Position numbers and translations under genes: made by a program. Positions 25,078-30,507 of a stretch of DNA of 47,112 nucleotides are shown one piece after another; position 1 is the first letter of the stretch, and the number at the start of each line of letters is the position of its first letter. Origin of the DNA: Escherichia phage e4/1c. The stretch lies in sequence record NC_024210.1; one strand, given 5' to 3'. Below the pieces are notes generated by a model, which saw only the letters and a list, made by a program, of their open reading frames with translations, did no database searches and was not told where the DNA came from.

Positions 25078-26046
25078 ATGAGCTTCAAGGTTTACACTAA
25101 CGATGAGTTAACCAATGAAGCCTACCATCAGGAGTCAGATCATGTGTCTGGTTCTGGTCTGGCTCACATTTTCTCAACTTGCCCAGCTGCACACAAGTTC
25201 TCTGAGCATGATGACGAGAGTAAGGCACTTAAGTTTGGTACGTTGGCCCACACGGTAATTCTTGAGAACTCTGCGTTCGACGCAACTTATTACCGGCAAC
25301 CAGCGCAGGAAGAGTTTGAAGACCTGATCACCAGCAAGACTGCATTAGCCGCAAGACTTAAGGCGATGGGAATTACAGGCACATCAGGTAAGGATTACCC
25401 TGAATTAATGGAGATGCTGACACTGACCGGTGAATCACTAAACGTATGGTGGGATATCCAGCGATCTAGCGAGGTTAAAGCTGAAGCCCGAGAGATTGTA
25501 TCAGCTAAGGACTTTGACACCGTACAGGCTATGAGAGAGGTTCTATGCGGCATTCCTGCTTACAATGCCATAGTTAACAGTAAAACCGCTCAGCGAGAGT
25601 TATCAATCTTCGGTGAGATTAATGAGTGCGGAGTTAAGGTAAGGCTGGACCATGTTGATGTTGTTGGTGATAAAGTTGTGATCACAGATTACAAGACAAC
25701 ATCAGACGCATCTCCTGAATGTTTTGGTAGGTTGGCGGCTAACTATGGCTACTTGCTTAAGATGAGTTTACAGCGCGATCTATTTGTGCGTGCGTTCAAT
25801 GAGAAGCGCAAGGTTGTTGTCCAGTTACTGGCTCAGGAGAAAAAGGCACCATACCTTCCAATGCTTTACACATTATCAGATGCGCACATTGCTTTAGGTC
25901 GCAGGCAGTATATGGAAGCATTGGCAACATACAAACAGTGCAAGAAGTTTAATGTCTGGCCCGGTTACAACGCAATTGAGGATTCTATGGAGTTGCAGGT
26001 TCCAGAGTTTTATATGAAGAAATACGAAAACAGCACGAATAGCTAA
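25078..26046 (+). CDS. PD-(D/E)xK-type exonuclease (recombination exonuclease)
   Basis: 322 aa; motif VRLDHVDVVGDKVVITDYKTT; directly upstream of Erf. Confidence 0.6.
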   Translation: MSFKVYTNDELTNEAYHQESDHVSGSGLAHIFSTCPAAHKFSEHDDESKALKFGTLAHTVILENSAFDATYYRQPAQEEFEDLITSKTALAARLKAMGITGTSGKDYPELMEMLTLTGESLNVWWDIQRSSEVKAEAREIVSAKDFDTVQAMREVLCGIPAYNAIVNSKTAQRELSIFGEINECGVKVRLDHVDVVGDKVVITDYKTTSDASPECFGRLAANYGYLLKMSLQRDLFVRAFNEKRKVVVQLLAQEKKAPYLPMLYTLSDAHIALGRRQYMEALATYKQCKKFNVWPGYNAIEDSMELQVPEFYMKKYENSTNS

Positions 26047-26101: not shown

Positions 26102-26749
26102 ATGAAGACTTCGGAAAGTAATAAGTCAGTTTTACAGGCGCTTTTTAAGGCCCGCACAGGCTTCGCTAAGGCGGCAAGAGACAAGCAAAACAGTCACCTT
26201 AAGAATCGATACGCTACACTTGACTCCATGCTGGAGGCCGTAGTGCCAGCGCTTGATGACAATGACTTAATGATTATGCAGAGTATGTTAGAGACATCAA
26301 CTTCTGATAATCTTAATGTCGAAACAACTCTTTATCACGTTTCTGGTGAGTGGGTTAGCTTCTTTATGATTATGCCGATTGTTAAGAAAGACCCGCAAGG
26401 CGTAGGCTCAGCATTCACATATGCACGACGCTACTCATTGGCCGCAGCGCTTGGAATTAGCCAATCAGACGACGATGCTCAGATGGCGGTTAAGAGTGTA
26501 AAGGACTGGAAGCGAGAAGTAGAGAAGGCAGAGACTCGCGATGAACTTGTAGAGGTTTACAAGGCATGTAAATCACAAGCCGATGCCGCAACATGGGGTA
26601 TCGTTGAGAAAGCTATCATCGAAAAGCTAGCTGAGATAAAAATGGCATCAGCAAGTGGCTTCAACCCAGCAAAGCCTAAAGAAGTAACTAAAGTTGTTGC
26701 AAATGCACCGAGTGAGGCTGTAGAATCACAATCAATAGAAAAGTTCTGA
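26102..26749 (+). CDS. erf: ERF-family single-strand annealing protein
   Basis: 215 aa; motif GSAFTYARRYSLAAALG characteristic of Erf-type recombinases. Confidence 0.75.
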   Translation: MKTSESNKSVLQALFKARTGFAKAARDKQNSHLKNRYATLDSMLEAVVPALDDNDLMIMQSMLETSTSDNLNVETTLYHVSGEWVSFFMIMPIVKKDPQGVGSAFTYARRYSLAAALGISQSDDDAQMAVKSVKDWKREVEKAETRDELVEVYKACKSQADAATWGIVEKAIIEKLAEIKMASASGFNPAKPKEVTKVVANAPSEAVESQSIEKF

Positions 26750-26790: not shown

Positions 26791-27294
26791 ATGGCTGGAT
26801 ATATAAAGTACGATGATTTCTCAAAGTACTTGCATTTAGATAATGATGGTGATTTGTGCTGGAGCGTAAGCGTAAAATCATCTAAAGTTGGTAAGATGAA
26901 AGGCTCACCTGACAATTACGGTTATAAGCATTTTCACCTATTTGGAAAGAGATGGAAATTTCATAGAGTAATATACTGCCTACATAACAAGTGCGACCTA
27001 GATAGCTCAATTGAGGTTGACCATATTGATTTAGATAAAAGCAATAACAAACCATCAAATTTAAGAATTGCATCAAGGCACGATAACCAACAGAATAGAG
27101 GTAAGAATAAAAACAACACTAGCGGATACAAGGGAGTTTGCTTTCATTCAAAAACTGGCTGCTACTTTGGTAGAGTCTTGTTTGATGGCAAGGTTTACTC
27201 AACCAAATACCACAAACTAGAAGTAGATGCACACAAAGAACTTTGCAAAATCAGATCTAAATTTAAATCAACTTATGTAAACAACGGAGAATAA
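26791..27294 (+). CDS. HNH-AP2 homing endonuclease (intact)
   Basis: 167 aa; HRVIYCLHNKCDLDSSIEVDHIDLDKSNNKPSNLR (HNH) followed by NTSGYKGVCFHSKTGCYFGRV (AP2-like). Confidence 0.8.
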   Translation: MAGYIKYDDFSKYLHLDNDGDLCWSVSVKSSKVGKMKGSPDNYGYKHFHLFGKRWKFHRVIYCLHNKCDLDSSIEVDHIDLDKSNNKPSNLRIASRHDNQQNRGKNKNNTSGYKGVCFHSKTGCYFGRVLFDGKVYSTKYHKLEVDAHKELCKIRSKFKSTYVNNGE

Positions 27295-27295
27295 G

Positions 27296-27718
27296 ATGCA
27301 TACTTTAACTGGAAATATCCGCAAAGCGCCTTTCACAAAGACTGGGGAAAACAGTAAAGGCCAGTGGAAGATGTATAAGGTTGAACTTTCAGAGTCATAT
27401 AAAAATAAAGAAGGTGAAAGGAAATACACAAATTACTCAGTAACATTTTTTGCCAGTGAAGCGCAGATTAGTTGGTATGACGAAGCATTTCAGGAAGGTA
27501 AGGTTATCTCTGTGAGCGGTGACTCATTAGCAGTTAACGAGCGGGAACATAATGGTAAGTCATATATTACACTTGAGTTGCAGAATCCGCGATTGATGTT
27601 TAGCCAGCGAGGCGGGGAATTAGCACCACAGCAACAACAACAGCAACCACAGCAACAGCAGCGACAGCAGCCACAGCAACAAAGCCGATTTACTGAAGAA
27701 GATGATATCCCGTTCTGA
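27296..27718 (+). CDS. ssb: single-stranded DNA-binding protein
   Basis: 140 aa; OB-fold-like N-domain, Gln-rich linker, acidic tail EEDDIPF (canonical SSB C-terminus). Confidence 0.85.
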   Translation: MHTLTGNIRKAPFTKTGENSKGQWKMYKVELSESYKNKEGERKYTNYSVTFFASEAQISWYDEAFQEGKVISVSGDSLAVNEREHNGKSYITLELQNPRLMFSQRGGELAPQQQQQQPQQQQRQQPQQQSRFTEEDDIPF

Positions 27719-27728
27719 TGTAAAATAT

Positions 27729-27752
27729 AAAGCCCCTTTCGGGGCTTTTTTT
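27729..27752. terminator. bidirectional terminator between ssb and tail fibre gene
   Basis: agcccc-tttc-ggggct flanked by A-run upstream and T7 downstream. Confidence 0.7.
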
Positions 27753-30468
27753 ATTGCGATGTTACATCACCATTCAAGCTCAAAGATACTGATTGTTTTG
27801 TCAAATCAACACCACCTTTAAGTGAATAGTATCTTGAAGCGCAATAATCAGACTCATCTGAATAGCCGCCAACGTACACACCAAATCCATATCCAGAGCA
27901 AGCTACATCACCACCACCTTGACCTGAGTACATGGTAACATAATTACCAGCTGTTGTTAGTATAGGTCTGACATCAATATCTATATACTGAGAATCAAAT
28001 GACCTTCTAATTCTAAATCCAGTATTCAGGTTTAAGATGCTCCACCAAATCTTGCCGGATACATCAAAACCAAGAGCGATATTATAAATACCACCATTGA
28101 CCATTCTTGATGAGACTGGCAACACACCTGATAAAACTCTTGTTTCACCTGATGCTGATATTAACAATGATACACTGTGTTCTCCTGATGCCATCACGTT
28201 ATACTGCAAGTAAAGAGCATTACTATTAACTCCAAAACCAGTCCCTATAGCCATAAGGTTAAAGTCTTCAGCAACAGTTATGGTCGGCGATATATTGCAT
28301 GTAGCGGTGAAACCTAGTGACGGGTCAAATCCAGTGCATATAATCTTATCTTTATTTGCCTGTGAAAGCCTTAGCCAATATTGCTGCCCAACTGATGATG
28401 CCGCCGCGGCGAATACTGGTGTATTAGAGACCCCATCAAAAGCTGAAGTGTCGTTTGCTGGCTTAATTCTTGTCTTCCTTTTGTCTATTAGTCCGTTTAT
28501 CTTCAGGTTTCCTGAATACTCAGAAACATAGTTAGTGTCCCCTGAGAAATTTGGGCCAAAGTAACCAGATTCAACAACCCCATCGATCACAACATCAGAT
28601 CTTGAGTCAAGGAATCTGAAGTTGCCAGCGGAAGTTGGCCTTCCATCGCCATTGTTAGATACATAGTTAAGCCCAACAAAACCATAGATTCTTACAGAGC
28701 TATTTGAAAACGAAACGTTATAATCTCTGTAGTTTGAGTTTATGCTGTTCCTGTTACTATTTAATCCATTAAATACCACATTTCTAGAGTTTACAATTCT
28801 AACTCCGTCACCACCGCAATCCTGTGCTTCTATAGCTGACATGGTGATGTTTTGGCAGTTATCAACCAGGATGCCATAAGCATCATCAAGCTCATTGTAA
28901 GGCGACCAACCTGACCAAATAAACTTACCGCCAACAATCCTACAGTTTCCGGCATTCCTAAGTATTAGACAATTTCTTCCACAGGTGTTTACCTGTATGT
29001 TATTCCATGTGAAGTCTGTTGTTTCGTTAATCAATCCGTCTTTTTTTATGTGCTGAATAAGAACATCATCAAGAACGGGAGAGTAGTTACCAGCAGCAAC
29101 GAAAATTCCGTAAACATCAAACCCAGCAATGTGAGTGTTTCTTATCGTTAAGTCCCTCCTAGGGTCAGCACCAGCGTTGAATGGGTAATTGGTTGATAAC
29201 CCAGTCGGCGTAGGGATGTAAATCCCAGCAGTACCATCAGTAAACGCCGTGTCTTGCTGGGCTCCAGTGCCGTAAAGAGCAATTCCTTCAATATGAATGA
29301 GCGAGCAAGAATCAGATACCTCAATTAAAGAGCCAATTGATGAACTAAGCTGAGTTATTCTTGATTTGTGCTTGCCAAAACCAATTATAGAGCAAGATTT
29401 ATTTCTCATTACCAGGTTTGATGCCATGTAGTCGCTATTAAGCTTTAATGCCAGCCCAGAGTCTAGGATTTGCTGTATCTGTGTCGTTGAGTCTGATGTC
29501 GATGACTTAATAGCTCCAAGTTCGCAAGGCGACAGCTCCCCGCTACAGATTCTTTCCCAGTAATAACCGGTACTTGATTCAAAAACCAACCCTGAAGATA
29601 ATCCATATGATAACGATGACTCCGGCTTACAAACAAAGAACCCACCACCATAACCAAGACCACCAATGTAAGAATCACAATAGACAACCTCTAAGTCATA
29701 AATTCTGGCAGAGTTGGTCATTGCTGATACTGATTCAAACCTTCTTGTGTAATCCTGTTGAATCCAAAAACCAACTCCAATACCACCTGTAGACTGTGGT
29801 GATGAGTTTTGTGGTATGGATTTTGGAACGCTACCAGACCAGTAATAAACCGAAACATGATTGTCATTAAAGTAAATTGCAGGCTGAGTTCTTGAGTTTA
29901 TTTCTCCACCATTTGAGAAATCAACTACAAGAGCAGATGACACAGAAGCCGCAGCAGAGCTTGCTATTGTAGCTGAAGAGGAAGCCGAGTTAGCGCTACT
30001 TTCAGCTAACTGCCTATCAGAAGATGCCTGATCTTTGTCAGAAGAAACTTGAGCAGCATCAACAGCAACTTGCTGAGATTGCATGTTGACATTATTTACG
30101 CTTTGCTGGAAAGAATCAGAATCAAATTGATTAAAAGCATCAACTGCCGCTGCAACCTCTGTTTCACGGGACTGATAATAACGAAGTGTCTCAGCAACAT
30201 CCTGAGCAAGACCTTGGACAGTAATTCCGTCATGAGCAAGGATTGAGTACTGAGTCCCAGCTGGCGCAGTAAAACCTTTATCATTGAACACACGAATCTC
30301 TGTATCGCTTAAAATCTCAGCGATAGTAACAATGGTTGTCGGGGTGGTGTTAAAAATCATTGTTGCGCCAACTCGGATTAGCGTTAGTGGTTGCCTCCAC
30401 GTGGTGCCAACACCAGTTACAGTTCCGTCAGCCGCAAGCGATGCAGTTCCAGCGTCATAAATTGCCAT
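27751..30468 (-). CDS. lateral tail fibre / tailspike with beta-helix-like central domain
   Basis: about 905 aa from ATG 30468; N-terminus MAIYDAGTASLAADGTVTGVGTTW typical of tail fibre anchors; repeated N/G/I-rich segments consistent with a parallel beta-helix. Confidence 0.65.
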   Translation of the reverse strand: MAIYDAGTASLAADGTVTGVGTTWRQPLTLIRVGATMIFNTTPTTIVTIAEILSDTEIRVFNDKGFTAPAGTQYSILAHDGITVQGLAQDVAETLRYYQSRETEVAAAVDAFNQFDSDSFQQSVNNVNMQSQQVAVDAAQVSSDKDQASSDRQLAESSANSASSSATIASSAAASVSSALVVDFSNGGEINSRTQPAIYFNDNHVSVYYWSGSVPKSIPQNSSPQSTGGIGVGFWIQQDYTRRFESVSAMTNSARIYDLEVVYCDSYIGGLGYGGGFFVCKPESSLSYGLSSGLVFESSTGYYWERICSGELSPCELGAIKSSTSDSTTQIQQILDSGLALKLNSDYMASNLVMRNKSCSIIGFGKHKSRITQLSSSIGSLIEVSDSCSLIHIEGIALYGTGAQQDTAFTDGTAGIYIPTPTGLSTNYPFNAGADPRRDLTIRNTHIAGFDVYGIFVAAGNYSPVLDDVLIQHIKKDGLINETTDFTWNNIQVNTCGRNCLILRNAGNCRIVGGKFIWSGWSPYNELDDAYGILVDNCQNITMSAIEAQDCGGDGVRIVNSRNVVFNGLNSNRNSINSNYRDYNVSFSNSSVRIYGFVGLNYVSNNGDGRPTSAGNFRFLDSRSDVVIDGVVESGYFGPNFSGDTNYVSEYSGNLKINGLIDKRKTRIKPANDTSAFDGVSNTPVFAAAASSVGQQYWLRLSQANKDKIICTGFDPSLGFTATCNISPTITVAEDFNLMAIGTGFGVNSNALYLQYNVMASGEHSVSLLISASGETRVLSGVLPVSSRMVNGGIYNIALGFDVSGKIWWSILNLNTGFRIRRSFDSQYIDIDVRPILTTAGNYVTMYSGQGGGDVACSGYGFGVYVGGYSDESDYCASRYYSLKGGVDLTKQSVSLSLNGDVTSQ

Positions 30469-30492
30469 TATGTAAATTCTCCATTTGTAAAA

Positions 30493-30507
30493 TAGCACGA
30501 ATTGCTA
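30493..30507. promoter_or_regulatory. palindrome TAGCACGAATTGCTA in 5' region of tail fibre gene (atypical placement)
   Basis: perfect copy about 25 bp upstream of tail fibre start codon, downstream of a TACAAT -10-like hexamer on the minus strand. Confidence 0.4.

What the first reader, a model, noticed from the sequence alone, without database searches (positions are those of the whole stretch)
27597..27680. Gln-rich linker of SSB encoded by a CAG/CAA-rich repetitive tract
The linker PQQQQQQPQQQQRQQPQQQ is encoded by repeated CAA/CAG/CCA units, a slippage-prone tract that could vary linker length between isolates.
Basis: seen in the sequence. Interest (0 to 1): 0.2.

Follow-up and report, generated by a model that had tools for sequence, protein, structure and literature searches.

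The report
Glutamine-rich flexible linker of phage SSB

Summary
The window is Escherichia phage e4/1c, a T1-like siphophage of the Drexlerviridae. ORF 27296-27718 (+) encodes 140 aa in three parts: an SSB-type OB fold (aa 1-106), a predicted disordered Gln/Pro-rich linker, and the host-like tip DDIPF.

The peptide PQQQQQQPQQQQRQQPQQQ is real. It is aa 111-129, nt 27626-27682, encoded by 8 CAG, 7 CAA, 3 CCA and 1 CGA.

Length variation among relatives is confirmed.
- In 157 homologues, every internal indel but one (a single gap at aa 40) lies within aa 110-135; eleven also carry one extra residue after Met1.
- Linkers span 22-40 residues, even between proteins with identical OB domains.
- One pair of genes differs only by 2 versus 3 copies of CAGCAACCG, a slippage signature.

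Three caveats apply.
- The e4/1c tract has no long pure repeat and is no more repetitive than random synonymous recoding.
- Nine Rogunavirus isolates share a 30-residue linker, with identical Gln-tract DNA in the six read.
- Exchange of gene 3' ends by recombination also contributes.

Variable disordered linkers are textbook SSB biology, so this is ordinary and of low interest.

The parts
27296..27718 (+). ssb gene of phage e4/1c (140 aa plus TGA stop). GGAG lies 9 nt upstream of the ATG.
   Evidence: ORF list and translation. 100% identical to the e4/1c protein AHY83185.1. PHROG_44 SSB at E 3.4e-31.
27296..27613 (+). OB-fold ssDNA-binding domain (aa 1-106), ending in the invariant F-S-Q-R-G motif.
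   Evidence: AF2 block-mean pLDDT 83-94 over aa 1-100, with strands E2-8...E99-104 and helix 55-64. Foldseek PDB hits to bacterial SSBs at E about 1e-4, probability 1.00. In 157 relatives this domain has one internal gap (aa 40, one sequence) plus one extra residue after Met1 in 11.
27614..27688 (+). Predicted intrinsically disordered linker (aa 107-131, GELAPQQQQQQPQQQQRQQPQQQSR).
   Evidence: pLDDT below 50 from residue 107 to the C terminus. Family linker composition is 55% Gln and 7% Pro.
27626..27682 (+). The Gln-rich tract itself (aa 111-129): 8 CAG, 7 CAA, 3 CCA, 1 CGA. It reads as degenerate 21/24-nt units that begin CCACAGCAAC at 27626, 27647 and 27671.
27632..27649 (+). Indel hot spot (aa 113-118), where most insertions and deletions among relatives fall.
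   Evidence: The alignment of 157 relatives places 296 inserted residues (summed over relatives) after aa 115, and gaps at 113-118 in up to 12 sequences. The 3' part P126-Q-Q-Q129 is conserved in 87-97% of sequences.
27689..27715 (+). Acidic C-terminal tip FTEEDDIPF (aa 132-140). D-I-P-F is conserved in nearly all relatives. T133-E134 is a 2-residue insertion shared only with the closest relatives.
   Evidence: I138, P139 and F140 are invariant in 157 sequences, and 136 of 157 lack residues 133-134. The E. coli SSB tip is MDFDDDIPF (PMC7145534).
27729..27748 (.). Bidirectional intrinsic-terminator hairpin (AAAGCCCCTTTCGGGGCTTT, with T-rich runs on both sides) between the convergent ssb and tailspike genes.
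   Evidence: The equivalent site is annotated as a rho-independent terminator on both strands in phage AHP42. It is conserved in Sf12, Jk06, Opt-79 and Phagiculus.
26102..26749 (+). Context: Erf-family single-strand annealing protein, a likely functional partner of the SSB.
   Evidence: Pfam PF04404 ERF at E 6.5e-24.
25078..26046 (+). Context: PD-(D/E)XK exonuclease of the recombination module.
   Evidence: Pfam DUF3799/PDDEXK at E 9.9e-20. Annotated as exonuclease VIII in relatives.

Best explanation
The tract encodes the intrinsically disordered linker of the phage-encoded SSB of Escherichia phage e4/1c (Drexlerviridae, Rogunavirinae-like). The protein has three parts: a ~106-residue OB-fold ssDNA-binding domain, a ~25-residue Gln/Pro-rich flexible tether, and an acidic tip ending DDIPF.

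Shown here: the domain architecture, the predicted disorder of the linker, the conservation of the tip, and the concentration of nearly all length change in the linker.

Inferred from E. coli SSB biology:
- The tip mimics the tip of host SSB.
- The tip docks SSB-interacting proteins, both host replication/repair factors and probably the neighbouring phage Erf/exonuclease recombination module.
- The linker sets the reach and local concentration of the tip, and contributes to cooperative or condensate-like SSB-SSB contacts on ssDNA.

The linker needs only composition and approximate length, so it tolerates in-frame indels. These arise in the CAG/CAA/CCA-rich DNA by replication slippage or microhomology deletion between short repeats, and by recombinational exchange of gene 3' ends between co-infecting T1-like phages. 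Stabilising selection keeps the length within roughly 22-40 residues. This is mutational drift within a permissive segment, not a programmed switch.
For: Identity of the window and protein
- The window is phage e4/1c.
- The nearest relatives are Sf12, Jk06, Rogue1 and C119, all Drexlerviridae.

SSB fold and architecture
- PHROG_44 matches at 3.4e-31.
- The AF2 model shows an OB fold with pLDDT 83-94 and a tail at 107-140 with pLDDT below 50.
- Foldseek PDB top hits are bacterial SSBs, including 1eqq and 1eyg.
- D-I-P-F is essentially invariant in the family.
- The E. coli tip is MDFDDDIPF and carries the protein-protein interactions (PMC7145534).

Length variation confined to the linker
- The segment before FSQRG is 101 aa in 108 of 115 representatives, while linkers are 22-33 aa, mean 29.7, sd 2.1.
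- In 157 sequences only one gap falls inside aa 1-109, plus one extra residue after Met1 in 11 sequences.
- Members with 0 OB differences have linkers of 25, 31, 32 or 40 residues.

Mechanism signatures
- The P0095 and P0157 genes have 0 mismatches over 420 nt and differ by one extra CAGCAACCG unit.
- P0036 and P0150 differ by a 21-nt deletion bounded by CAGC microhomology.
- All indels seen are multiples of 3.

Rate relative to the OB domain
- Against its four closest relatives, the e4/1c linker is 80-86% identical at the nucleotide level with 3-12 gap columns.
- The OB domain in the same comparisons is 89-94% identical with 0 gaps.

Published background
- IDLs of bacterial SSBs are poorly conserved and range from about 16-25 to 125 residues.
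- IDL length and composition affect cooperativity and tip availability (PMC7145534).
Against: - Pfam PF00436 (SSB) scores only 15.6 bits, below the gathering cut-off of 26.
- Sequence searches of the PDB give nothing significant. SSB membership therefore rests on fold, PHROG and tail motif, not on the curated Pfam threshold.
- The e4/1c tract has no long uninterrupted repeat and is no more repetitive than random synonymous recoding.
- Rogunavirus isolates show no length change. Nine (Jk06, AHP42, AHP24, AKS96, Rogue1, C119, BECP10, phiJLA23, phiKP26) have a 30-residue linker, and the six read at the DNA level have identical Gln-tract DNA.
- P0005 is an identical protein on 19 contigs from several samples. 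Slippage is therefore infrequent on isolate time-scales.
- The cleanest slippage example rests on a 786-nt contig with 2x coverage, so an assembly error cannot be excluded.
- No binding, oligomerisation or partner-interaction data exist for this protein.
Confidence: 0.85

Rival explanations
1. The length differences among relatives come mainly from recombination, that is, mosaic exchange of ssb 3' ends between co-infecting T1-like phages. On this view little comes from de novo slippage in the Gln tract, and the tract is not itself mutation-prone.
For: - P0018 and P0128 have identical OB domains (0 of 101 differences) but unrelated linker sequences of 31 and 40 residues. P0142 carries yet another tail type...APSDFDDEIPF.
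- Some blastn hits cover only nt 97-423 or 154-419 of ssb, at higher identity than the full-length hits. This suggests breakpoints inside the gene.
- Six Rogunavirus isolates read at the DNA level share identical Gln-tract DNA, although their 5' ends differ: MHTLTGV versus MHVITGQ, and TKDGERKYTNYRITM versus TRDGERKYSNYRATF.
- Mean linker-length difference is independent of OB-domain divergence, at 2.0-2.5 residues in every identity bin.
Against: - P0095 and P0157 differ by one tandem 9-nt unit with zero other differences across the gene. Recombination with a diverged donor would not produce that.
- The 21-nt deletion in P0150 is bounded by microhomology.
- Indels cluster at one spot inside the Gln run, aa 113-118, rather than replacing whole tails.
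- The statistic is biased, because cluster representatives at 90% identity are separated partly by their linkers.
- The two mechanisms are not mutually exclusive.
Confidence: 0.35
2. The linker is an adaptive, contingency-like hypervariable region. On this view its length or sequence is diversified under selection, for example to retune interactions with host SSB partners or to escape host defences that sense phage SSB.
For: - Linkers differ between proteins with identical OB domains.
- The linker evolves faster than the OB domain in e4/1c's closest relatives.
- Phage SSBs, including that of SECphi4, are known triggers of Retron-Eco8 (bioRxiv 10.1101/2025.11.11.687766).
Against: - There is no long pure repeat, and codon mixing is at least as high as random.
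- Length is held in a narrow band, sd 2.1 residues, which looks like stabilising rather than diversifying selection.
- The best-sampled isolate group is invariant in length.
- All indels are in frame, so there is no on/off switching.
- For T7 SSB, Retron-Eco8 activation needs the OB fold, and deleting the C-terminal tail has no effect.
Confidence: 0.05
3. The tract is a chance low-complexity run in a mis-called ORF, or it serves as a nucleic-acid element (RNA or DNA signal) rather than as coding sequence.
For: Pfam SSB is below threshold. The e4/1c GenBank entry calls the protein hypothetical.
Against: - The reading frame, the Gln richness and the in-frame DIPF end are conserved across 157 homologues down to 45% identity.
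- The other two forward frames and the reverse strand carry no ORF here.
- No Rfam family approaches its gathering score.
- Codon-level alignment shows many synonymous CAA/CAG changes with the peptide preserved.
Confidence: 0.02

Closest known systems
E. coli-type bacterial SSB (OB fold, intrinsically disordered linker, acidic tip MDFDDDIPF)
   Same: - It has the same three-part architecture.
- The OB fold superposes on E. coli SSB structures 1eqq, 1eyg and 1qvc.
- The tail is predicted disordered and is rich in Gln and Pro.
- The C terminus ends D-D-I-P-F, matching the last five residues of the E. coli tip.
- Linker length is poorly conserved while the DNA-binding domain is conserved, as described for bacterial SSBs (PMC7145534).
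   Different: - It is much shorter: 140 aa, with a linker of about 25 residues against 56 in E. coli.
- The linker is about 55-79% Gln with almost no Gly. The E. coli IDL is rich in Gly, Gln and Pro.
- Sequence identity to solved SSBs is only 13-23%, and the protein fails the Pfam PF00436 gathering threshold.
- The oligomeric state is unknown.
- It is phage-encoded and sits next to Erf and a PD-(D/E)XK exonuclease.
SSBs of other T1-like phages (PHROG_44; Jk06 JK_77, Rogue1, Sf12 gp28, C119, ACG-M12)
   Same: - These are orthologues at 76-92% amino-acid identity.
- Gene order is the same: erf, (HNH), ssb, terminator, then a convergent tail-fibre or tailspike gene.
- They have the same Q-rich linker and DIPF end.
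   Different: - The linker differs by 1-6 residues.
- e4/1c, Sf12 and the Rogunavirus group carry a 2-residue insertion before the tip that most family members lack.
- Some relatives (ACG-M12, phiEB49, ECH1, SCS31) carry 15 extra residues after DIPF.
Simple-sequence contingency loci and triplet-repeat poly-Gln tracts
   Same: The region is CAG/CAA-rich coding DNA in which in-frame unit gains and losses occur. One search shows CAGCAACCG at x2 versus x3.
   Different: - The repeats are short and interrupted, with at most 3 identical codons in a row.
- There is no frameshift switching.
- The length is stable across many isolates.
T7 gp2.5-type phage SSB
   Same: It is a phage-encoded OB-fold SSB whose acidic C-terminal tail ends in an aromatic residue and recruits replication proteins.
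   Different: The OB-fold lineage is different, gp2.5 has no Gln-rich linker, and its tail sequence is unrelated. gp2.5 does not appear among the top 50 fold hits.

Membership tests
Bacterial-type SSB (Pfam PF00436 / PHROG_44) | Scores above the curated Pfam PF00436 gathering threshold | tested here: not met
   15.6 bits, E 0.017, against a cut-off of 26 bits. The match spans aa 3-92 and profile positions 5-93 of 104.
Bacterial-type SSB (Pfam PF00436 / PHROG_44) | Membership of the phage SSB profile family | tested here: met
   PHROG_44 'single strand DNA binding protein', E 3.4e-31, 110 bits, aa 1-140.
Bacterial-type SSB (Pfam PF00436 / PHROG_44) | OB fold structurally similar to solved SSBs | tested here: met
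   The AF2 model has block-mean pLDDT 83-94 over aa 1-100. The Foldseek PDB top 50 are nearly all SSBs: S. coelicolor 4dam, E. coli 1eqq/1eyg/1qvc and P. aeruginosa 6irq; the exceptions are trypanosome editosome OB-fold proteins. E is 1e-4 to 4e-3, probability 1.00, and TM normalised to the target is 0.45-0.60. This is a predicted model, not an experimental structure.
Bacterial-type SSB (Pfam PF00436 / PHROG_44) | Acidic C-terminal tip ending D-(D/E)-I-P-F | tested here: met
   The protein ends ...EEDDIPF. I-P-F is invariant in 157 relatives. The E. coli tip is MDFDDDIPF.
Bacterial-type SSB (Pfam PF00436 / PHROG_44) | Low-complexity disordered linker between the OB fold and the tip, poorly conserved in length | tested here: met
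   pLDDT is below 50 for aa 107-140. Linker length is 22-40 residues among relatives, with a constant OB domain.
Bacterial-type SSB (Pfam PF00436 / PHROG_44) | Binds ssDNA and forms homo-oligomers (dimer or tetramer) | not testable with these tools
   This needs purified protein (EMSA, AUC, SEC-MALS).
Bacterial-type SSB (Pfam PF00436 / PHROG_44) | Conserved aromatic ssDNA-stacking residues equivalent to E. coli W40, W54, F60 and W88 | not tested
   Invariant aromatics exist in the family (W24, Y44, Y47, F52, W60, Y61, F65). They were not mapped onto the E. coli positions.
Simple-sequence-repeat contingency locus | Long uninterrupted tandem repeat (several identical units) | tested here: not met
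   At most three identical codons in a row. The longest exact repeat is 12 nt. TRF scores are 43-51. Repetitiveness is at or below random synonymous recoding.
Simple-sequence-repeat contingency locus | Repeat-number polymorphism between otherwise near-identical genomes | tested here: inconclusive
   One clean case: the P0095 and P0157 genes are identical except for a 9-nt unit at x2 versus x3, though on a 2x-coverage contig. Against this, nine Rogunavirus isolates and 19 contigs carrying P0005 show no change.
Simple-sequence-repeat contingency locus | Length changes switch the reading frame or expression on and off | tested here: not met
   All indels are multiples of 3, and DIPF stays in frame in 157 of 160 sequences. 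The exceptions include P0156, with an aberrant tail on a 966-nt contig.

The most novel reading that the evidence does not exclude
The poly-Gln linker of T1-like phage SSBs may be more than a passive tether. On this reading its nearly pure Gln composition drives condensate-like self-association of SSB on phage ssDNA. Its rapidly turning-over length would then tune access of the host-mimicking DDIPF tip to host SSB partners and to the phage Erf/exonuclease module. Linker-length alleles would be selected in different hosts, or against SSB-sensing defences.
Probability: 0.07. Interest if true: 0.45.

Novelty: already known. Interest (0 to 1): 0.12.

Why it matters
It matters little beyond annotation.
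- The e4/1c gene listed in GenBank as 'hypothetical protein' can be named ssb with confidence.
- The family gives a clean natural series of linker lengths, 22-40 residues and about 55% Gln, on an otherwise constant OB domain and tip. Groups studying how SSB linker length and composition control cooperativity, condensation and partner recruitment could use it.
- It also shows that length polymorphism in such tracts reflects both small slippage events and modular recombination, so it should not be read as a programmed switch.

Tried and rejected
- Sequence searches of the PDB, with the single protein and with a 41-sequence profile, gave only insignificant hits. The best SSB-like hit was yeast Rim1 at E 0.3. 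The fold search was needed to confirm the SSB assignment.
- Pfam did not recognise the SSB above threshold. It also did not recognise the endonuclease downstream of ssb in ACG-M12; PHROGs did.
- An Rfam scan of 27000-28000 found nothing near a gathering score. An RNA-element reading was dropped.
- I asked whether codon choice makes the tract more, or less, repetitive than expected. It is neither: P(>=observed) is 0.73 for the longest repeat and 0.89 for the longest identical-codon run.
- The comparison of OB identity with linker-length difference turned out to be biased, because the database is clustered at 90% identity. I use it only as a weak indication.
- The IMG/VR scan returned only 23 loci, mostly isolates already seen. 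It widened the family view but added no further close pairs.
- A link between the linker and Retron-Eco8 sensing was considered. It was set aside because activation by T7 SSB depends on the OB fold and not on the C-tail.
- One literature search on phage e4/1c failed because of term syntax.

Full report
**What the window is.** The 140-aa product of ORF 27296..27718 (+) is 100% identical to a protein of Escherichia phage e4/1c, whose contig is 47,112 bp, the size of the window. The nearest relatives by DNA are Shigella phage Sf12 (89% over ssb) and the Rogunavirus group: Jk06, AHP42, AKS96, Rogue1, C119 and BECP10. All are Drexlerviridae, that is, T1-like siphophages.

**Checking the observation.**
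- The ORF ends ...FSQRGGELAPQQQQQQPQQQQRQQPQQQSRFTEEDDIPF*. The quoted 19-residue peptide is aa 111-129, nt 27626-27682. It is encoded by 8 CAG, 7 CAA, 3 CCA and 1 CGA.
- As a protein feature the tract is far from chance. It has 15 Gln in 19 residues, against at most 7 in any other six-frame ORF of the window.
- As DNA it is only weakly repetitive. TRF scores are 43-51 for periods 6, 9 and 15. There is a degenerate 21-nt family. The longest exact repeat is 12 nt, and never more than three identical codons occur in a row.
- Re-coding the same peptide at random with the phage's own CAA/CAG usage gives equal or longer repeats 73% of the time. The DNA repetition is what any poly-Gln peptide entails, and codon choice neither enhances nor suppresses it.

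**What the protein is.**
- Pfam's SSB model matches the N-terminal 92 residues, but below threshold: 15.6 bits against 26. Sequence searches of the PDB are uninformative.
- The phage family PHROG_44 'single strand DNA binding protein' matches end to end at E 3.4e-31.
- An AlphaFold2 model built on 41 homologues gives a confident beta-barrel with one helix for aa 1-104, with block-mean pLDDT 83-94 over aa 1-100. The tail at aa 107-140 has pLDDT below 50.
- Foldseek against the PDB returns almost exclusively bacterial-type SSBs, with E 1e-4 to 4e-3 and probability 1.00. They include E. coli SSB bound to ssDNA, 1eqq and 1eyg.
- The last residues, DDIPF, match the end of the E. coli SSB tip MDFDDDIPF, which is the element that docks SSB-interacting proteins (PMC7145534).
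- More distant members of the same phage family even end ...PPMDFDDDIPF or ...PPIDFDDDIPF.
- The architecture is therefore OB fold, disordered linker, acidic tip, as in the classical bacterial SSB.

**Surroundings.**
- Upstream on the same strand lie a PD-(D/E)XK exonuclease (25078-26046), an Erf annealing protein (26102-26749) and an HNH endonuclease (26791-27294).
- Downstream, a bidirectional terminator hairpin at 27729-27748 separates ssb from the convergent tailspike gene, 27751-30498 on the minus strand.
- Nothing else is encoded across the tract. There is no ORF on the other frames or the other strand, and no Rfam match.

**Does the linker length vary among relatives? Yes, and essentially only the linker does.**
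- Among 115 cluster representatives carrying the motifs, the segment before the invariant FSQRG is 101 residues in 108 and 102 in 7. The segment between FSQRG and DIPF ranges from 22 to 33 residues, mean 29.7, sd 2.1, 55% Gln.
- In an alignment of 157 relatives, aa 1-109 of e4/1c contain one gap in one sequence, plus one extra residue after Met1 in eleven. Every other indel falls in aa 110-135.
- There is a hot spot at aa 113-118 and a separate 2-residue indel at aa 133-134. The 3' end of the tract, P126-Q-Q-Q129, and the F...D-I-P-F tip are conserved.
- Inside clusters of at least 90% identity, proteins with no OB-domain differences have linkers of 25 versus 32 residues and 31 versus 40 residues.
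- Against its four closest relatives, the e4/1c OB domain is 89-94% identical in DNA with no gaps. The linker is 80-86% identical with 3-12 gap columns.

**How the variation arises.** Two DNA-level comparisons show the expected signatures.
- The genes for P0095 and P0157 are identical at all 420 shared positions and differ only by two versus three tandem copies of CAGCAACCG. This is textbook slippage, with the caveat that the longer allele comes from a 786-nt contig at 2x coverage.
- P0150 differs from P0036 by a 21-nt deletion bounded by CAGC microhomology.
- All indels observed are multiples of three.

Slippage is not the whole story, and the tract is not hypermutable.
- Nine independently isolated Rogunavirus phages have a 30-residue linker: Jk06, AHP42, AHP24, AKS96, Rogue1, C119, BECP10, phiJLA23 and phiKP26, from Canada, Mexico and elsewhere. 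The six read at the DNA level have identical Gln-tract DNA, although their 5' gene halves differ.
- P0005 is identical on 19 contigs from several samples.
- Some proteins with identical OB domains carry unrelated linker sequences, for example P0018 and P0128.
- Several blastn hits cover only the 3' two-thirds of ssb, at higher identity than the full-length hits.
- Together these points indicate recombinational exchange of gene 3' ends, the usual mosaicism of these phages.

**Comparison with what is known.** For bacterial SSBs it is established that the disordered linker is poorly conserved and spans roughly 16-25 to about 125 residues. Its length and composition influence cooperative ssDNA binding and the competition between the tip and the DNA-binding domain. 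The tip alone carries partner binding (PMC7145534). Engineered linkers change condensation behaviour (PMC12143593). The e4/1c protein fits this picture as a short phage version with an unusually Gln-dominated linker. It does not meet the definition of a contingency locus: it has no long pure repeat, no frame switching, and is stable among isolates.

**Verdict.** 'Slippage-prone' should be softened to 'indel-tolerant, with occasional slippage and recombination'. The feature is ordinary and already explained by known SSB biology. I rate interest at 0.12 and novelty as already known.

Noticed in passing
Relatives L005 (ACG-M12) 580-1441, L009 (phiEB49), L014 (metagenomic P0005 type). The corresponding site in the window is the ssb stop at 27716-27718.: In 8 of 115 homologues the SSB does not stop after DIPF. 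It continues for a conserved 15 residues, for example APIGLQYGMSNIYVL. In ACG-M12 and phiEB49 this extension comes with an inserted endonuclease gene (PHROG_2340, E 8.4e-41) whose ATG lies inside the extension in another frame. In P0005-type genomes only a decayed remnant of that gene remains, yet the extension persists. The extension would bury the normally free C-terminal Phe of the SSB tip, so its functional consequence is unexplained.
   Followed up: partly
window 26791-27294 (+): An HNH endonuclease gene (Pfam HNH_3; PHROG_99 at 2.7e-40) sits between erf and ssb, with its stop 1 nt before the ssb ATG. In Sf12, Jk06, AHP42, Opt-79, BECP10 and Phagiculus, erf is followed by ssb after only 47 nt. 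C119 and the P0005-type genomes have the insertion. This looks like a presence/absence polymorphism of a free-standing homing endonuclease.
   Followed up: partly
window 27296-27718 versus phage records (one search hits H27, H32, H34, H38): Several relatives match only nt 97-423 or 154-419 of ssb, at 81-86% identity, which is higher than the full-length hits at 76-79%. Six Rogunavirus isolates have identical Gln-tract DNA but different 5' halves. This suggests recombination breakpoints inside ssb.
   Followed up: partly
Loci L034, L040, L044 and L036-L043 (IMG/VR T1-like contigs): More distant family members (45-56% identity) have tails ending ...PPMDFDDDIPF or ...PPIDFDDDIPF. Some have GWGQPQQPQ in the linker, which from my recollection of the E. 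coli SSB sequence closely resembles the host tail. This may be host mimicry or acquisition of the host tail.
   Followed up: no
window 27729-27748: A symmetric GC-rich hairpin flanked by A/T runs is scored as a terminator on both strands, between the convergent ssb and tailspike genes. It is conserved in Sf12, Jk06, Opt-79 and Phagiculus, and is annotated as a bidirectional terminator in AHP42.
   Followed up: partly
Proteins P0005 and P0045: Near-complete coliphage contigs that carry this SSB are deposited under bacterial names: a 'Bacteroidales bacterium' MAG of about 47 kb, and 'Streptomyces lividans'. This is probably mis-binning or contamination in public assemblies.
   Followed up: no
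L010 (phiJLA23) and L011 (phiKP26): The ssb annotations in these two GenBank records look damaged. phiJLA23 has an aberrant N-terminus, and phiKP26 has a truncated 72-aa CDS with ambiguous bases and a tail-fibre CDS overlapping it. These are probably sequencing or annotation errors rather than biology.
   Followed up: no
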